Assembly: GCA_964016885.1 (NCBI GenBank)
Contig: OZ024748.1
Location: 19,282,001-19,346,000 of the forward strand
Length of the DNA stretch: 64,000 bases
Source of the DNA: Eledone cirrhosa
Lineage: Eukaryota
Direction of reading: 5' to 3'
Made by a program: the position numbers and the translations under genes. The notes beneath the pieces are model-generated. The model was not told where the DNA came from and ran no database searches. It saw only the letters and a list, made by a program, of their open reading frames with translations. Below are positions 1-62,341 of this stretch, one piece after another; the first letter of the stretch is position 1; each line of letters starts with the position of its first letter.

Positions 1-32
<32 letters not shown>

Positions 33-743
33 ATTCTTTATAATTATCTCCAAATTATTTTGTTGAGCAAAAATTTGCCAAAACTGCTACTATAGTTCAT
101 AGTAATAGTTCGGCTACTGTCTTCTTAACACCCCACTCCTCACTGATTAACCTCGATGTCACGTGATTGATTCTTTTGAATTTGCCACCGACCAAGTAGG
201 CAGTGATTTTTTCAATGTCTTGGAATTTAGTCCTCGCTTGCTTTTTTTCCATCCACTGAATTATTTTTGTATAAGTTCCCTGTGTTCACGCATCGCCTGG
301 GAACTTAGCTAAGAATTGACTTCCTGATGACGAAAGGCATTCTCCATGTTGTCCATTCGGAAACCATGTTTATTCCCTTTCAGAAACTAATTAGTTGGAG
401 TGAAATTTTAGTAAGTAAGTTAATTTTTATAACATTCTTATTTTACGTCTTTCATATAATTGTTCTGCATCCCCTTGCATTGAACCACAAAGTTACTAAG
501 AAAAAGCCTATATATTTGCTAGCATAGGTATGCATCTGTATATATATGTTGGTAGATATACAAATTCTTTATAATTATCTCCAAATTATTTTGTTGAGCA
601 AAAATTTGCCAAAACTGCTACTATAGTTCATAGTAATAGTTCGGCTACTGTCTTCTTAACACCCCACTCCTCACTGATTAACCTCGATGTCACGTGATTG
701 ATTCTTTTGAATTTGCCACCGACCAAGTAGGCAGTGATTTTTT
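33..743 (+). mobile_element. ~180-bp direct repeat (33-213 = 564-743) enclosing a degenerate hammerhead-like motif; probable Penelope-like pLTR partial tandem
   Basis: Identical duplication of attctttataattatctcc...gcagtgattttttc. Between the copies is CTGATGA (~324) - cgaa...ttcg stem - GAAAC, with poor stems I and III. Confidence 0.55.
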
Positions 744-978
<235 letters not shown>

Positions 979-1285
979 GGGGTGAGGCAAAGATTGAGAG
1001 ATAAATAGATAGATAGATATGTTTATCTACTAGACTGAAATATCGCCGGGGCATTAAGCAGATATGTATCAATGCTGTTAATTAAAGATTTAAATCATCT
1101 CATCACCAAGATTCACATATAATACAATTATGCAATTATGCCTTATCAGAAATACGTACATATATACACACACATACACGTTTACATTTATATACATACA
1201 CATACACGAATTTATGCATACATACATACACATACACATAATTATACTTATACACTTATGCATACATACATACACATATGTGTCT

Positions 1286-1374
<89 letters not shown>

Positions 1375-1414
1375 TATAAATATATATATAAACATATATA
1401 TTTATACATATACA

Positions 1415-1448
<34 letters not shown>

Positions 1449-1551
1449 AATATATATATACACATATATATTTATACATATACATATATATATATATATT
1501 CATATATATATATATAAATATATATATACACATATATATTTATACATATAC

Positions 1552-1582
<31 letters not shown>

Positions 1583-1704
1583 AATATATATATACACATA
1601 TATATTTATACATATACATATATATATATATATATATATACATACATATGCATACATATATATATATACACATATATATATGTGTGTGCGTGTGTGTGTG
1701 CGAT

Positions 1705-1779
<75 letters not shown>

Positions 1780-2964
1780 GAAAGTACATACATTTACAGT
1801 CTTTTCTATAGCAGTCAGATATAGAAACAGAGACAGCAATATTATTTCTGTTACTATCATTTCTCGGATTATTTATTTATTTATTCATTTATTTGATATA
1901 ATGTAAGGTGATATATATATATAGTATCAGTGTTTCTAATCAATTATATCTTATACCGTCATATGTAACAGATATTCATACCGAATATGTAATATATCAT
2001 GTAATGTAATAATATCATTACACAATGTGAAGTAATGCAAAATAATATAATATATTATATATTGTGATATAATGTCATGTTGTGACACCTTGCTATATAG
2101 AATGTCATACATTTGTAAGAAAGAGAGGTGCAGGTGATTTAATTGATACAGGCAAACACACCGTTTACAGCTTTTATAAATAGCTGTGTTATGAAATGTC
2201 AAGTTAGATATACTTGAGATTTGAACTCAGAGAATTCAGCGATGGAGGTAAAAGTATTTTAACGCATGTCCTTTTTCTTTCTTGTATTAACTGTTAAGTT
2301 TAAAGGTCATTGATGACACACAAAACTTAATGATAATTCTTACAGGTTTGATCTTGTTTTGAGGACAAAAAGAAGTAATCCCTGATTTTATAGTTACAGA
2401 TAGCAAGGTAACGAATGGGTCAGGACAAAATGGAGCTCATGATTCTAATGCAGGTAAGATTAAATACACAAAAGGTAAGCAACAGGTAAGAAGAAGTGTT
2501 TATTCATCCGTGTAATAAATAGTATTAAGTGTTAAATAAATAAGAACATATATTTACGACACGGGCGAATAAGCACGTGGAAGACAATTCCCAAACATAA
2601 CTTCCTCCAGTTTGTTTCGTGTAACATACCTGTGCTAATATTTGTCAACAATCCTCACTCTCCATGCTCTACCTTTTGTTTGGTCCTACACCATTAAGTT
2701 CCACTCCCCTTCCACCCTCTCCTCATGCTCCACCACCACCACCACCTCCTCCTCATCATCAACGTCGTCATATTAATCGCCATATTCTTTATCCTCCTCC
2801 TCCTCCACCTCTTTCAATTCCTCCCCTTCCTCCTCTTCCTCCTCATCCCCCCGCCCCATCTTCCTCCACCACCTCCTCCTCCTACCCCTTTCACCCTCGT
2901 CCTCCCCCTCCTCCTCCTCCCCCTCCTCCTCTTCCTCCTCTTCCTCCTACATACAATATAAATA

Positions 2965-3089
2965 ATTCTTATTTCTCATTCTTTCTTCTTATGAAGGACT
3001 AGCGTCCAAGATTTTATGACCCTCTTCCTACTATTTCAAGCGTTAAACTAATATATTCTTCCCTTATATTGTACCGATTGCTGTTTACG

Positions 3090-3095
<6 letters not shown>
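2965..3095 (+). repeat. Diverged dispersed repeat homologous to 52790-52915
   Basis: Shared ttatttctcatt...ttcctactat..caagcgtt.aactaatatatt. Confidence 0.55.
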
Positions 3096-3175
<80 letters not shown>

Positions 3176-3394
3176 GTATGTATGTATCTATGTACGTAAT
3201 CATGTATGTGTGTATGCATATATGCTTCCGTAGTGATTTTTATTTTATATTTTAACTCAATAATATTGTTTTCCTATACAGTATTTCTAGCGCGACTTAT
3301 AAACGTAATTTATATAAAGTCTATCTTTTCAACATTGACATGATGTATGACATTGAACTAAAGAATCAACCCTTATATATAGTATTACGATTAT

Positions 3395-3429
<35 letters not shown>

Positions 3430-4284
3430 CATATATATACATACATATATATATATATACACACATAAATATATGTATATATATGCATATATATATATAT
3501 GTATACACACACACACACATATATATATATATATTTATATATCTATCTATATATATATATATAAGGATTTATACATATATATGACATTTTTATTTCCTAT
3601 AAATATTATTATGATTAGAGGAGAAAATAGTAATCAAATCCAAATTAATACAAGTTGTTGCTTATATTATTTTTATTATTTTCAATAAAAAAAAAAAGAA
3701 ACGTGTATGGTTTGAATGATTTAGTTTTAATGAGGCATAATTTAAGAAAACAGTTGAAGAGGAAATAGATTTTAAAATAACCCTCTTAGCTCACTTCGGC
3801 CCGTTTTTTTTTCTCAAAGCGTTAAACTTTTTATATATATATGTATGTATGTATATGTTCTTCTGGTTTTATAATTTCACAAAGTTTTACCAATAGAGAG
3901 TCGGTTTCTAACATAGACACAAGACTCACTCATTGGAATTTACACAACATCAACTAGGTAGATATGTATGTATGTATGCATACATGATGTGTAGATATGG
4001 ATGTTATTGTATATGTGGATGTGTATGTTTTGAGTTGTATGTGTGCATGTATATAGGCTTTGTATCTGTACATGTGTATATGCAGATGCAACATTTTTGG
4101 AATGTTTTACATATTTTTACTGTTCCATTAATGGATTGTACTTGTAATTTCCTAACTAGTTGTGTTCTTTCTGTTCCTGTGAAGCCTAGCTTCTCAAGAT
4201 TTGTATGTATGTATGTATGTATGTATGTATGTATGTATGTATGTATGTATGTATGTATGTATGTATGTATGTATGTGTAGTGTT

Positions 4285-4410
4285 TGTACCAGAGTTTTCA
4301 AGTCGCTGGCTGGACTAAAAAGTCACACTCGTTCAGCGCATCGGTAGGGGTTCTCCTACATGGATATAAAGTAGTGGCCGTACTCGAAAACGAGTTGGCA
4401 GCCACCATGT
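4285..4410 (+). mobile_element. Old fragment with a 3' end like the 6915/34070 element
   Basis: Ends ctcgaaaacgagttggcagccaccatg + TATG-like tail, resembling the reverse complement of the start of 6915. Confidence 0.4.
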
Positions 4411-4465
4411 ATTTATGTATTTATGTATGTACATATGTATTTATATATGTATCTTTCTATTTATC

Positions 4466-4547
<82 letters not shown>

Positions 4548-4568
4548 TATATATCTGTCTGTTTGTCA

Positions 4569-4642
<74 letters not shown>

Positions 4643-5137
4643 TTTCTTTCTCTGTCTCTCTCTCTCTCTGTTGCCAAGTTGGTGTAATCAGCTAAGACAT
4701 TTATCGTGACAATGAGAGTTGTGGGTTCTATTGCAATGCAAGCTTATGCCCATTTATTTTCCGCTCTGTCGGATGATTCGCCCAATTATTAGACTATATA
4801 CTGTAGTAAGCATGACGGCGAAAGCTATTAATTGGATTACATTTTCAAATTCCTCCACCATCCACTTAACACGTGATTATTTAAATGTGATGAAATATCA
4901 ATGATGGTTGGCAAATCACTGACGAAGGACTATTTTTATCATATGTAACCCATGTGCAACCACGCAGTATTCTTCTTTCTTCTCATGTTTTATATATATA
5001 TATACATATATATAAAATGTCTGGATATCTATATGTTTAACTATCTATATATATATGTGTGCATTTGGACATTTTAGTATTGTTCACTCTAAACAGTGAT
5101 TGAATAGGCGCGAGTCACCTCATCTATTATTACAAAT

Positions 5138-23693: not shown

Positions 23694-23695
23694 AT

Positions 23696-24006
23696 ATATA
23701 AGATCAAAAGATGGTTAAAAGAGTTCCATGTATTTTATTATGCGCATTTCAAAAACAAATATCATCATGCAATAATATTTGTGTTTTCATCAGATAAAAT
23801 AGGAAGACATGATATGAAGGTTAAAAAACACTTGTGAATAGTGCAGTTTTAAATCAACATATTGAAATGCGCATAATAAAATACATGAAACTCTTTTAAC
23901 CATCTTTTGATCTTATATATTATGTATACTCCAGTCCTACAAACTGTAGAGTGCTTCTTATTCGATATCTGCATTGCTTTATTGTACTACAATAAAACTC
24001 ACCTCC

Positions 24007-24010
<4 letters not shown>
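23696..24010 (-). mobile_element. HHR-bearing element with partial inverted duplication (Penelope pLTR/retrozyme-like)
   Basis: 23696-23752 is inverted at 23863-23920; homologous to 58564-58795; flanked by (TA)n. Confidence 0.75.
23731..23801 (-). ncRNA. Type I minimal hammerhead ribozyme
   Basis: tattttat-CTGATGA-~16-bp stem II-GAAA-tgcgca-TA-ataaaata. Confidence 0.88.
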
Positions 24011-24880: not shown

Positions 24881-24957
24881 GCAGGTGCGTCCGTTTTTAT
24901 TGACAGCATGGCCCCCCCCCCCTCAAAAAAATTATAACTATATATATATATATATAT

Positions 24958-25141
24958 AACAAAGGAATTGTGGTAAGGAACCAGATGGACCATAACGCAC
25001 CAGAGTACTCAATACTTGGGGTAGTAGAGTGGGAAATAGGAAAAAGTATGACCCCGACGGCAGAGCTTAAGCCGTTTCGACAGCTATTTCTGGAAATAGC
25101 CGTTGAAACGGCTTGAGCTCTGCCGTCGTGGTCATACCTTT

Positions 25142-25146
<5 letters not shown>
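24958..25146 (-). mobile_element. Hairpin-family element copy 2
   Basis: Reverse-complement match to the family; flanked by (TA)n. Confidence 0.88.
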
Positions 25147-25175
<29 letters not shown>

Positions 25176-25179
<4 letters not shown>

Positions 25180-25496
25180 AAGAAGGTGTGGTAAGATACC
25201 AGACGGACCATAACGCACCAGAGTACTCGCTACTTAGGGTACTCGATACTTAGGGTACTCGATACTTAGGGTACTCGATACTTAGGGTACTCGTTACTTA
25301 GGGTACTCGATACTTAGGGTACTCGATACTTAGGGTACTCGATACTTAGGGTACTCGCTACTTAGGGTACTCGCTACTTAGGGTACTCGATACTTAGGGT
25401 ACTCGTTACTTAGGGTACTCGATACTTAGGAACTAGTTCGGATCTAGCTGTCGAAACGGCCGGAGCTCAGCCGTCAGTGTCCTGACCCTTTTCCTA
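25176..25496 (-). mobile_element. Hairpin-family element copy 3 with an internal 16-bp tandem expansion (25222-25430)
   Basis: About 13 copies of tacttagggtactcga inside the element. Confidence 0.85.
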
Positions 25497-25520
25497 CACA
25501 TATATATATATATATATATA

Positions 25521-25718
25521 AGTGGTGACACAACAGTTAGTTCAACATACCGAGAACAATTGTTTCACCTTTGCGGATCTAACGAGCAGAAGATCCGCTA
25601 AGGTGCAACAATTGTTCTCGGTATGTTGAACTAACTGTTGTGTTACCACTGCTACCTAACTCGTCCCATGGACTGAGTGCTCAACCACTACCGATATTAC
25701 CTTCCAGTGTTCTCACTC
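25521..25718 (+). mobile_element. Second fold-back element: 60-bp arms (25521-25650) plus tail
   Basis: agtggtgacacaac...gcggatct / agatccgc...gttgtgttaccact. Confidence 0.8.
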
Positions 25719-25725
25719 TCCCCCC

Positions 25726-25756
<31 letters not shown>

Positions 25757-25758
<2 letters not shown>

Positions 25759-25948
25759 GGAACGAGTAGGACCCCGACGGCTGAGCTCAAGCCGTTTCGA
25801 CGGCTAATTCTGGACTGAATTAGCCGTCGAAACGGCTTGAGCTCAGCCGTCGGTTGTCCTACTCGTTCCTATTACCCACTCTACTACCCTACCTATTGAG
25901 TACTTTGGTGCGTTATGGTCCACCTGGTTCCTTACCACATTTCCTTCG

Positions 25949-25950
<2 letters not shown>
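25757..25950 (+). mobile_element. Hairpin-family element copy 4
   Basis: ~55-bp palindromic arms plus ~80-bp tail, in (TA)n. Confidence 0.92.
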
Positions 25951-25987
<37 letters not shown>

Positions 25988-25995
25988 TATAAGTT

Positions 25996-26070
25996 TTAAT
26001 ATAGATGAGATTCTACAGGACTAGAACTGTTTCATTCTTTAGAAATCATCAGGAATCTCATCTATATTAA
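25996..26070 (-). ncRNA. Type I hammerhead ribozyme
   Basis: 18-bp perfect stem I ttaatatagatgagattc/gaatctcatctatattaa; CTGATGA tttctaaagaat GAAA cagttctagtcctg TA. Confidence 0.85.
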
Positions 26071-26156
26071 ATCTCATCTATATTAAAACTTTTATACTCT
26101 GCAATGTATTGAGTACCTTGCTTACTGTGGTTACCTCCGATTCAACCCGGAATAAC

Positions 26157-26214
<58 letters not shown>

Positions 26215-38484: not shown

Positions 38485-38560
<76 letters not shown>

Positions 38561-38564
<4 letters not shown>

Positions 38565-38754
38565 AACGAGTAGGACCCCGACGGCTGAGCTCAAGCCGTT
38601 TCGACAGCTAATTCTGGACCGGAATTAGCCATCGAAACGGCTTGAGCTCAGCCGTCGGGGTCCTACTCGTTCCTATTACCCACTCTACTACCCTAAGTAT
38701 TGAGTACTTTGGTGCGTTATGGTCCACCTGGTTCCTTACCACATTTCCTCCGTT
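38561..38754 (+). mobile_element. Hairpin-family element copy 5
   Basis: Family match. Confidence 0.92.
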
Positions 38755-38834
38755 ATATATATATTTATATATATATATGTATGTATATGTATGTATATAT
38801 ATATATATATATATACATATATATACATATATAT

Positions 38835-54265: not shown

Positions 54266-55168
54266 ATGCAGTTTAATGCTGGCAAATTCCAAGCCCTACA
54301 ATACAAACCTCCAAACAAACCTGCAAACACAAATATAGTACAACACAACTACACAAGACCAGGAGGGACAGATATCCCCGTGTCAAAATCGATGCGAGAC
54401 CTGGGCATAGACATGAGCGATGATGCATCTTTTTCCTCACACATCATGAAGGTGGCGACAATGTGCAGACGACTCGCTGGCTGGATCTTGAGGACTTTCA
54501 GGACAAGAGATCAAGACACCATGTTGACATGATGGAGGACATTTGTCCTAAGCCGCCTGGACTACTGCTCCCAGTTGTCGTCACCCTATAGTGTCAAACT
54601 AACCACGGAGCTTGATGCAATCCAGCGAAGCTACACCAAGAGGATTGCCACGATGAAGGAGACAAGCTACTGGGAGAGGCTAAAGGAACTGAACCTCTAC
54701 TCCTTGGAACGAAGACGGGAGAGATACGCAGTGATCTACATGTGGAAAATCCTGGAGAGACTAGCACCAAACTTTGGCATTGAGAGCTGGACCAACCGTC
54801 GAACAGGACGTCACTGTGTGGTGCCAAAGGTCCCGTCTTCCACATCTAGAATAAGAAGCGGGTATTGCAATAGCCTGGGATTCAAGGGCCCTCAACTCTT
54901 CAACAAGCTGCCGAGGGATCTGAGAGATTTGCATGACGTGGAGGTGGATGTCTTCAAGAAACATCTCGACACCTTGCTATCCAGGATCCCGGATGAGCCC
55001 ACAGCAAGGCACGAGGGAAACCTAAGGGCAGCAGCAACAAACTCCCTCTTTCACCAGTGGCCAACCTATACAGGCTGGAGATAAAATGTGTAGCAACAAG
55101 GGCGGTGCTCCAGCATGGCCTCAGCGGATGGCTGAAACAGGTAAAAGAGAAAAAGAGTAAAAGAGTAT
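54266..55168 (+). mobile_element. 5'-truncated CR1/L2-group LINE: end of RT and C-terminus (one in-frame stop at 54530) plus 3' UTR and tail
   Basis: MQFNAGKF...RDLGI...ILRTF...SRLDYCS...YWERLKELNLYSLERRRER...FNKLP...FKKHLD..L..IPDEP. The two track ORFs are in the same frame. Tail is (gtaaaaga)-like. Confidence 0.92.
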
Positions 55169-55407: not shown

Positions 55408-55553
55408 AAATATGGCAGGAGCTCGGCCATCGGGGTCCTGACTCTTTCATATTACCACACACTACTATCCCTAGTACTTTCGTGAGTAATGGTCTAACTA
55501 AAAGGTTAGCTCTGCATCCATTCTGATTCACACATATATATGTATATATATAT

Positions 55554-55644: not shown

Positions 55645-55727
<83 letters not shown>

Positions 55728-55782
55728 GAGTCAGGACCCCGACGGCCGAGCTCCTGCCGTTTCAACAGTTTGTTCCGAACTA
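55408..55782. mobile_element. Sister of the hairpin family: two inverted pieces (55408-55530 +, 55722-55782 -) separated by (TA)n
   Basis: gaaacggcaggagctcggccgtcggggtcctgactctttcat parallels gaaacggcttgagctcagccgtcggggtcctactcgttcct. Confidence 0.7.
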
Positions 55783-58232: not shown

Positions 58233-58419
58233 GTAGGACCCCGACGGCTGAGCTCAAGCCGTTTCGACGGCTAATTCTGGCGTCCAGAATTAGCCGTCCA
58301 AACGGCTTGAGCTCAGACGTCGGGGTCCTACTCGTTCCTATTACCCACTCTACTACCCTAAGTATTGAGTACTTTGGTGCGTTATGGTCCATCTAGTTCC
58401 TTACCACATTTCCTTCGTT
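58233..58419 (+). mobile_element. Hairpin-family element copy 6
   Basis: Family match. Confidence 0.92.
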
Positions 58420-58446
58420 ATATTTATATATATATACATATATATT

Positions 58447-61379: not shown

Positions 61380-61414
<35 letters not shown>

Positions 61415-61418
<4 letters not shown>

Positions 61419-61608
61419 AGTAAGTAAGACCCCGACGGCTGAGCTCAAGCCGTTTCGACGGCTAATTCTGAGTACAGAATTAGCCGTCGAAACGGCTTGA
61501 GCTCAGCCGTCGGGGTCTTACTTACTCCTATTACCCACTCTACTACCCTAAGTATTGAGTACTTTGGTGCGTTTTGGTCCACCTGGTTCCTTACCACTTT
61601 TCCCTCGC

Positions 61609-61609
<1 letters not shown>
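61415..61609 (+). mobile_element. Hairpin-family element copy 7
   Basis: Family match. Confidence 0.92.
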
Positions 61610-61685
<76 letters not shown>

Positions 61686-62077: not shown

Positions 62078-62110
<33 letters not shown>

Positions 62111-62112
<2 letters not shown>

Positions 62113-62302
62113 CGAAGGAAATGTGGCAAGGAACCAGGTGGACCATAACGCACCAAAGTACTCAATACTTAGGGTAGTAGAGTGGGTAATAGGAACGAGT
62201 AGGACCCCGACGGCTGAGCTCAAGTCGTTTCGACGGGTAATTCTGGACTCCAGAATTAGCCGTCGAAACGGCTTGAGCTCAGCCGTCGGGGTCCTACTCG
62301 TT

Positions 62303-62306
<4 letters not shown>
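62111..62306 (-). mobile_element. Hairpin-family element copy 8
   Basis: Family match. Confidence 0.92.

Positions 62307-62341
<35 letters not shown>

What the first reader, a model, noticed from the sequence alone, without database searches (positions are those of the whole stretch)
25757..25950. Eight-copy hairpin element looks like the 3' half of a hammerhead folded back at stem II
Seen: copies at 744, 24958, 25176, 25757, 38561, 58233, 61415 and 62111. Intact copies are a ~55-60-bp palindrome plus an ~80-bp tail in (TA)n. The right arm reads agaattagccgtc-GAAA-cggc ttgagctca gccg-TC-ggggtcc, i.e. stem II 3' strand, GAAA, stem III with palindromic loop, GUC site and stem I 3' strand. Where CTGATGA should be there is an inverted copy of the downstream sequence. 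Centre loops differ between copies (ggact, ggacc, ggcgt, gagta). Copy-specific variants are mirrored in both arms (e.g. gagtaagtaagac/gtcttacttactc in copy 7). The inverted arm usually ends at a TAT microhomology with the TA target. Inference: during insertion the cDNA self-primes on the stem II hairpin and copies itself, repeatedly yielding ribozyme-dead palindromes. This would be a specific mechanism for Penelope-type 5' inversions. An alternative is an independently mobile hairpin element with arm gene conversion.
Basis: partly seen in the sequence, partly recalled or inferred. Interest (0 to 1): 0.82.

Follow-up and report, generated by a model that had tools for sequence, protein, structure and literature searches.

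The report
Penelope run-off stubs from two primers
These small mirror-image repeats are the commonest leftovers of a ribozyme-bearing Penelope-type jumping gene, and their ends suggest that the enzyme copies the short front end of its RNA twice, once from each side of a DNA cut, until it likely runs off the RNA's start, which gives a direct way to test how this class of elements inserts.

Summary
The repeats are real and are the 3' half of a hammerhead, but they are not fold-backs at stem II. They are stubs of a 3,531-bp Hydra-clade Penelope-like element (717-aa RT plus GIY-YIG protein) whose full ribozyme has a U3-A8 core, not CUGANGA. The genome holds at least 10,139 such palindromes. Insertions are head-to-head, one arm ending at +65, the other at +145. 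Either arm can be the longer (639 against 293 lopsided cases favour the tail-less arm; one tail-less arm is 16 kb against 283 bp), which tail-first fold-back cannot make. About 85% of arms stop at one wall inside loop II, at a conserved TTAGT about 30 bases below a TATA-like box. Both arms stop or both pass (48:6:0 mixed), and four insertions jump from the wall back into the ORF. Best reading: two cDNAs primed at two internal sites run off the RNA's 5' end. No RNA data were available. Inverted ends, tails and two start sites are published; I found no paper on the fixed wall. This scan noted similar stubs on other DNA of this genome.

The parts
25756..25816 (-). Tail-less arm of the reported copy, parent +5 to +65, outer end overlapping the (TA)n target at TAT
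25817..25952 (+). Tail-bearing arm of the reported copy, parent +11 to +145: stem II 3' strand, GAAA, stem III, GUC site, stem I 3' strand, 80-nt tail; shorter at the centre than its partner
744..880 (+). Lone tail arm, +9 to +145, preceded by a T run, no inverted partner
24956..25147 (-). Stub of an older subfamily: tail arm (+7 to +145) on the minus strand, tail-less arm from +11 on the plus strand
25176..25497 (.). Diverged subfamily stub: tail arm (minus strand) cut off inside the tail with a 16-bp tandem expansion; tail-less arm +4 to +65 on the plus strand (25434-25497). The tail-less arm has no template in the tail arm
38560..38756 (+). Stub: tail-less arm +6 to +65 (minus), tail arm +11 to +145 (plus)
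55419..55494 (+).
55720..55782 (-).
58233..58421 (+). Stub: tail-less arm +8 to +55 (outer end lost), tail arm +6 to +145
61414..61611 (+). Stub: tail-less arm +9 to +65, tail arm +5 to +145; subfamily haplotype in both arms
62109..62307 (-). Stub: tail arm +5 to +145 (minus), tail-less arm +7 to +65 (plus)

Best explanation
The palindromes are short head-to-head insertions of a Hydra-clade Penelope-like retroelement, likely made when its enzyme cuts both strands of a (TA)n site, primes one cDNA at +145 and a second at +65 inside the element's RNA, and both cDNAs likely run off the RNA's 5' end near +5 before being joined. Shown: the parent element, its protein, its U3-A8 hammerhead fold, the two fixed outer ends on opposite strands, the independence of arm lengths, the wall, the coupling of the two arms at the wall and the direct jumps from the wall. 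Inferred: that the two arms are separately primed (strong), that the wall is a physical RNA end (strong), that this end is the capped transcription start of the pLTR promoter lying inside loop II of the ribozyme (moderate), and that long and tandem copies come from another template without that end, a read-through multimer or a ribozyme-made circle (weaker). On this reading the stubs are dead because the promoter-started RNA itself begins downstream of the ribozyme's 5' half, not because an inversion overwrote it.
For: Parent: tandem unit 3,531 bp, 784-codon stop-to-stop frame, 717 aa from the first ATG; model pLDDT 93.5, best structural match telomerase RT; Hydra motifs. Two ends: 166 of 203 whole head-to-head junctions have one +65 and one +145 end, 8 have two +145 ends, 0 two +65 ends, 29 have an unclassified end. 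Independent arms: 639 insertions with the tail arm cut short against 293 with the tail-less arm cut short (29 of 30 and 30 of 30 checked loci fit); 23:21:9 in 53 short junctions; tail-less arm longer in 24 of 38 long rows; 283 bp against 16,082 bp in L101+L102. Wall: 25,527 arms reach +9, 4,842 reach +1, 3,562 reach -3; 134 of 157 sampled arms stop at +1 to +12, none between -1 and about -40, 23 run on. Coupling 48 wall-wall, 6 long-long, 0 mixed, 8 with one arm short of the wall, p=4e-8: a pause read separately by each arm would give many mixed cases. End signs: T runs added at the wall; four insertions jump in direct orientation from +2/+5 to +203, +258, +343 or +362 and run to the wall again; a G between the TA target and A+5 in 26 rows against C in 4 (first 100 of 446, hand count). 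Promoter signs: TTAGT is kept in diverged subfamilies whose upstream loop differs, and their stubs stop there too; TATA-like box at -29 to -31; other stub families stop about 30 bases below TATAAATA or at initiator-like motifs, at different places relative to their ribozymes. Literature: two internal RT starts and extension of both strands in vitro (PMC11167929).
Against: No RNA was seen, so start site, cap and circle are untested. The stop is spread over +1 to +12 with peaks at +5, +6, +9 and +11, so trimming or several starts must be assumed. The G excess is also present, weaker, at +6 (10 against 4 in the first 100 of 193). Older subfamilies have only a weak or no TATA-like box. In vitro the Anolis enzyme used both start sites on both strands alike, whereas here nearly every insertion has one of each, which needs a coupling step that is not shown. 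Lopsided short palindromes could partly arise by later deletion. The junction parser misread about six of 53 rows and left two duplicate rows. The sample behind searches came partly from a palindrome-only search and overstates the stub share.
Confidence: 0.72

Rival explanations
1. Same twin priming, but the wall is an RNA end made by processing (nuclease cut in loop II, or a splice acceptor after TTTAG) or a strong pause of the enzyme, not the transcription start.
For: The site resembles a 3' splice acceptor (sequence); Penelope pLTRs carry introns near the ribozyme (PMC2377424, PMC4209133, passages); stops are spread over 12 bases.
Against: No shared upstream exon appears in the centres; many arms keep +2 to +6, upstream of the acceptor; no mixed wall/long insertions in 54 argues against a pause; structure stops are expected on the 3' side of helices, not upstream of stem II (established RT behaviour, recalled); promoter-like motifs at the walls of other families.
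Confidence: 0.13
2. One reading: one cDNA primed at the tail end folds back near stem II, copies itself to the first TAT and is joined to the target.
For: Explains shared haplotypes, coupling of arms and that +63 is the first TAT; short templated fillers occur at some centres; self-priming was proposed for rotifer elements.
Against: Predicts that the tail-less arm never reaches further 5' than the tail arm; it does so in 21 of 44 unequal short cases, in 639 against 293 extreme cases and by kilobases in L061, L064, L101-102, L104. Lone tail-less arms exist. The centre is not at a hairpin of the stub.
Confidence: 0.08
3. The stub is an independently mobile non-autonomous element (MITE-like or SINE-like master copies) with arm gene conversion.
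For: Very high copy number; some centres recur (61 distinct centres in 78).
Against: Centres are mostly different; private mutations are not mirrored (85 private, no one-off shared variant among 16); stub haplotypes match those of long copies, including the youngest intact subfamily; ends are those of the full element.
Confidence: 0.04

Closest known systems
Hydra-clade Penelope-like elements (Craig et al. 2021, PMC8557442; passages, introduction and supplement excerpts seen)
   Same: C-terminal GIY-YIG, DKT, RW[KR], CxCx5C linker, no CCHH, hammerhead near the 3' end, (TA)n targets, partial tandems, inverted 5'-truncated copy, tail on one end.
   Different: Unit of 3.5 kb (clade usually under 3 kb); tail of 80 nt (30-40 usual); U3-A8 core with a 35-40-nt loop II (the paper reports canonical cores; Hydra-1_Obim is a different family with a CUGAAGA core); the fixed wall is not mentioned in what I read.
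Poseidon of Anolis (PAc) in vitro (Frangieh et al. 2024, PMC11167929; main text parts 1-2 and a term search seen)
   Same: Two internal RT start sites that define the tail, both DNA strands cut and extended, AT-rich target, product shortened by 5' truncation of the RNA, ribozyme cleavage not needed.
   Different: Other clade; start sites 80 nt apart and upstream of the first ATG; both sites overlap the target at TAT; the paper does not discuss inversions, a transcription start or circles (term search).
PLE hammerheads (Cervera and de la Pena 2014, PMC4209133; parts 1-2 seen)
   Same: Type I topology, long helix II with a bulge, palindromic loop III, U3-A8 core variant (reported in Schistosoma Cercyon), pairs of motifs on opposite strands, proposal of a circular template.
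   Different: Here helix III is a 5-bp stem that folds as a monomer, loop II is long, and most genomic copies keep only the 3' half.
Self-priming model for Adineta Penelope inversions (Arkhipova et al. 2013, PMC3846280; passages seen)
   Same: Head-to-head inverted pLTR, optional tail, TATA and initiator-like motifs in the pLTR.
   Different: Proposes self-priming on an antisense template from a handful of copies; the arm statistics here favour two primers on sense RNA.
L1 twin priming and retroviral minus-strand strong-stop DNA (recalled, no call)
   Same: Inversion from priming at both DNA ends; short cDNA that runs off the RNA 5' end after internal priming.
   Different: In L1 the two cDNAs copy adjacent, non-overlapping RNA and the second start is not fixed; here both copy the same stretch from two fixed sites. 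Strong-stop DNA is tRNA-primed and transferred, not integrated.

Membership tests
EN+ Penelope-like elements | Single ORF with telomerase-related RT | tested here: met
   717 aa; YRDD motif; best Foldseek match TERT 3du5, E 3e-8. Pfam and sequence searches of PDB gave no RT hit.
EN+ Penelope-like elements | GIY-YIG endonuclease | tested here: met
   VIY...YIG with conserved R617, H621, E676, N689; homolog P0001 hits Pfam GIY-YIG above cut-off. By motif and homology, not by a direct Pfam hit.
EN+ Penelope-like elements | Partial tandems with pLTRs, inverted 5'-truncated copy, one-sided tail | tested here: met
Hydra clade | DKT, RWK-like motif, CxCx5C linker, no CCHH, CxxC and CxH around E and N, (TA)n targets | tested here: met
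   DKT117-119, RWR37-39, C572-x-C574-x5-C580, one C between VIY and YIG, C670xxC673, C698xH700
Hydra clade | Placement in the clade by phylogeny | not tested
   Published Hydra proteins were seen only as supplement text; compared by eye, no tree built.
Type I hammerhead ribozyme (parent pLTR) | Three helices around the core | tested here: met
   Unconstrained minimum-energy fold of L101 gives the junction (z -0.55, so not unusually stable); 88.9% of cells paired, 5 pairs with two-sided change, 7 of 500 shuffles reach the covariation score, slid controls 28-53% (related sequences, so modest support).
Type I hammerhead ribozyme (parent pLTR) | Core C3UGANG8A / GAAA / NUH, or the U3-A8 variant | tested here: met
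   Young intact subfamily UUGAGAA, GAAA, GUC; position 7 varies across subfamilies. A large older subfamily reads CUGAGAA (C3-A8 mismatch; 61 of 123 arm hits) and fails this feature.
Type I hammerhead ribozyme (parent pLTR) | Self-cleavage | not testable with these tools
   Arms ending at the cleavage site: 66 against 31 and 28 at the neighbouring positions, partly explained by a C overlap; inconclusive.
Type I hammerhead ribozyme (stub) | 5' half (stem I strand, core, stem II strand) | tested here: not met
   Absent from all window copies.
MITE | Fixed internal sequence, terminal inverted repeats at both ends, own copy lineage | tested here: not met
   Variable centres, one-sided tail, haplotypes shared with long copies. 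Target duplications cannot be read in (TA)n.
Non-LTR retrozyme | Tandem short units each with a whole hammerhead | tested here: not met
   Stubs are single head-to-head halves; one derived 299-bp tandem array elsewhere does fit (L338).

The most novel reading that the evidence does not exclude
This Penelope-like element uses two templates. The promoter-started linear RNA begins inside the ribozyme's loop II and, because copying starts only 60 and 140 bases from its 5' end, yields dead run-off palindromes. All whole and multi-unit insertions come from a unit-length circular RNA made by the hammerhead, possibly with the 3' copy's 5' half completing the half-ribozyme at the RNA's front. In support, none of 36 insertions that cross the unit junction with upstream pLTR sequence stops at the wall after a full unit (21 independent, 15), and a 4.5-unit arm has units differing by 0-1 base. 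Stub walls would then map start sites for every such family, and the ribozyme's job would be to remove the RNA end that otherwise aborts transposition.
Probability: 0.35. Interest if true: 0.78.

Novelty: new member of a known kind. Interest (0 to 1): 0.55.

Why it matters
How Penelope-like elements make their inverted ends, tails and tandems, and what their hammerheads do, is an open question (PMC8557442, PMC11167929). This family supplies over ten thousand frozen reaction products that separate the models: they exclude tail-first fold-back as the main route, give an in-genome counterpart to the two start sites seen in vitro, and point to an exact RNA 5' end and to a second, end-less template. 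Each is a simple bench test. It also warns annotators that such hairpins are not MITEs or microRNA precursors.

Tried and rejected
Rfam scan: the 150 listed of 419 matches were microRNA-like or other hits below the gathering score, mostly on TA repeats; no hammerhead among those listed. Canonical CTGANGA scan of the window found other families' ribozymes, none in these copies. No PLE ORF in the window (tblastn). Pfam found nothing in the element's protein; PDB sequence searches nothing significant; single-sequence fold was unusable (pLDDT 32). No RNA holder was listed; laying contigs of four runs showed the same step in cover at the wall but cannot show starts, strands or expression, and two runs of other organisms had depth under 11 and were not used. 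Stops at the ribozyme cut site: inconclusive. Splice-acceptor reading of the wall: rejected for lack of a shared upstream exon. Gene conversion between arms: rejected. Literature searches for a fixed stop, strong-stop or twin-priming account in Penelope-like elements returned none; no listed Penelope paper held 'twin priming'. Most subscription papers are outside that library, and supplements were seen only for PMC8557442; figures S1-S2 of PMC11167929 may bear on end mapping and were not seen. Look-ups in earlier findings by sequence and by words were blank.

Full report
Observation. The eight places hold the repeat. Six are palindromes with a one-sided tail, one is a lone arm and one is a lopsided copy of a diverged subfamily; two further relatives lie at 55419 and 55720. 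The window is G000:C8:19282001-19346000 in a 3.0-Gb genome, which holds 10,139 exact palindromes with a centre of up to 30 bases.

Parent. Longer copies run 5' of the centre into a reading frame. Intact tandem arrays have a 3,531-bp unit and a 784-codon open frame, 717 aa from the first ATG. Its fold on a 116-sequence alignment is confident (pLDDT 93.5) and matches telomerase RT best. Motifs are those of the Hydra clade of Penelope-like elements; no tree was built. In tandems the 80-nt tail continues directly into the next unit. I number from the A of TTCATTTAG as +1.

Ribozyme. Upstream of the arm the parent carries the missing half. In the young intact subfamily the unconstrained minimum-energy fold is a type I hammerhead with core UUGAGAA, GAAA and GUC. 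U3-A8 is a published PLE variant (PMC4209133). Position 7 varies and stem II shows compensatory change in diverged subfamilies, modest support because the sequences are related. A large older subfamily has C3-A8 (61 of 123 arm hits) and spread anyway, in line with cleavage being dispensable in vitro. Only 70 copies have G8, 12 of them CTGANGA.

Two fixed outer ends. Of 203 whole head-to-head junctions, 166 have one end at +65 and one at +145; 8 have two tail ends, none two tail-less ends, 29 an unclassified end. Both ends overlap the target at TAT, and other TATs are not among the common ends. This matches the two internal start sites and the extension of both strands shown for Anolis Poseidon (PMC11167929).

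Fold-back tested. A fold-back of the tail-primed cDNA cannot give a tail-less arm that reaches further than its template. In 53 short junctions the tail arm reached further in 23, the tail-less arm in 21, equal in 9 (about six rows misparsed). Genome-wide, 639 insertions have the tail arm cut short and 293 the reverse, verified in 29 of 30 and 30 of 30 loci. Among long insertions the tail-less arm is longer in 24 of 38 rows (two duplicates), up to 16,082 bp against 283 bp. Copy 25176 in the window is such a case. Later deletions could explain some short cases, hardly the long ones. Arms share subfamily haplotypes (56 of 78, 13.5 expected) but not private mutations (85 private; the 16 shared are four recurring changes): one RNA source, no gene conversion.

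The wall. Exact counts fall from 25,527 arms at +9 to 4,842 at +1 and 3,562 at -3 (a small part is mutation). In loci taken in coordinate order, 134 of 157 arms stop at +1 to +12, none between -1 and about -40, and 23 run on (sample enriched for palindromes). The further arm of a junction peaks at +5/+6 (32 of 53). Arms are coupled: 48 both stop, 6 both pass, none mixed, 8 have one arm short of the wall (p=4e-8), so two template classes are more likely than a pause. T runs are added at the wall. Four insertions jump in direct orientation from +2/+5 to +203, +258 (twice in one array), +343 or +362 and run down to the wall again, as expected if the enzyme reaches an RNA end and jumps; this also shows that the RNA starting at the wall extends into the ORF. 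A G sits between the TA target and A+5 in 26 rows against C in 4 (first 100 of 446), as a cap would leave, but the control at +6 also leans to G, 10 against 4 (first 100 of 193); both are hand counts. TTAGT at +3 to +7 is kept where the loop upstream is not, and diverged subfamilies stop there too; it resembles an initiator (consensus recalled) and has a TATA-like box at -29 to -31. Other stub families have walls about 30 bases below TATAAATA, at TTTCATAT, at AAAATGGCG or at ACAGTT (small samples read by eye), at different positions relative to their ribozymes, so the wall follows promoter-like sequence, not stem II. Penelope has an internal pLTR promoter (PMC2377424).

Long copies. Of 30 listed arms that cross the unit junction, 25 (21 insertions) run through the wall and 5 rows (4 insertions) stop, none of these after a full unit; of 16 further loci 15 run through and one is a short jump product. 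Array units differ by 0-1 base. Their template therefore lacks the +5 end: a read-through multimer or a circle, the latter proposed in PMC4209133. This is inference. Stops at the cut site are only about twice the neighbours' (66, 31, 28), inconclusive.

Limits. No RNA run was listed and contigs cannot show starts. How one RNA region is copied twice (two RNAs in a dimer, or strand displacement) and how one end of each kind is enforced are unknown.

Comparison and novelty. The element is a new family of a known clade; inverted ends, tails, (TA)n targets, U3-A8 cores, two start sites and even the self-priming idea (PMC3846280) are published. In nine searches I found no account of a fixed stop at the RNA start as the dominant product, or of arm statistics that separate twin priming from fold-back. 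Earlier notes of this scan on other DNA of this genome report similar stubs, the Hydra clade and a hint of an RNA start; they are unchecked leads, and I tested the clade and the wall myself. For bioRxiv 10.64898/2026.07.22.740005 I saw part 1 of 5.

Verdict. Observation largely right, mechanism replaced: twin-primed run-off stubs, confidence 0.72; interest 0.55; 0.78 if the two-template, circle reading holds (probability 0.35).

Noticed in passing
L338 (G000:C2:356029300-356033300): Eight tandem 299-bp units cut from this element's pLTR and ORF start, each with a whole U3-A8 hammerhead and a shortened loop II: looks like a retrozyme newly born from this Penelope-like element.
   Followed up: partly
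window 25521-25715: A different palindrome-plus-tail stub in (TA)n directly beside the reported copy; relatives in L066 and L131.
   Followed up: partly
window 25984-26157: Stub of another family with a canonical CUGAUGA hammerhead on the minus strand; its family stops about 30 bases below a TATAAATA box, near the start of stem I.
   Followed up: partly
window 23694-24009: Stub of a third family with a whole hammerhead; its arms stop at ATATGTTGA, about 60 bases upstream of the ribozyme.
   Followed up: partly
window 25241-25430: A 16-bp unit from the tail's small hairpin region is repeated about twelve times, perhaps enzyme slippage; a GAGT(A/G)CT motif recurs in the tails of several unrelated stub families.
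   Followed up: no
L341:6270-9841 (G000:C1:91.49 Mb): About 65 tandem copies of a 55-bp piece of the ORF sit at the inversion junction of a four-unit insertion, a possible stutter of the enzyme.
   Followed up: no
window 324, 21261, 21545, 24339, 24764, 52810, 56224, 58692, 60255, 60612: Further hammerhead-like cores (CTGANGA...GAAA) from other repeat families.
   Followed up: no
window 54533-55081: Open frame of 183 codons that resembles the C-terminal part of a LINE protein (resemblance recalled, not tested).
   Followed up: no
L304, L288, L294 and others: An older subfamily with core UUGAAGA (U3-G8 wobble), most of the 70 G8 copies.
   Followed up: partly
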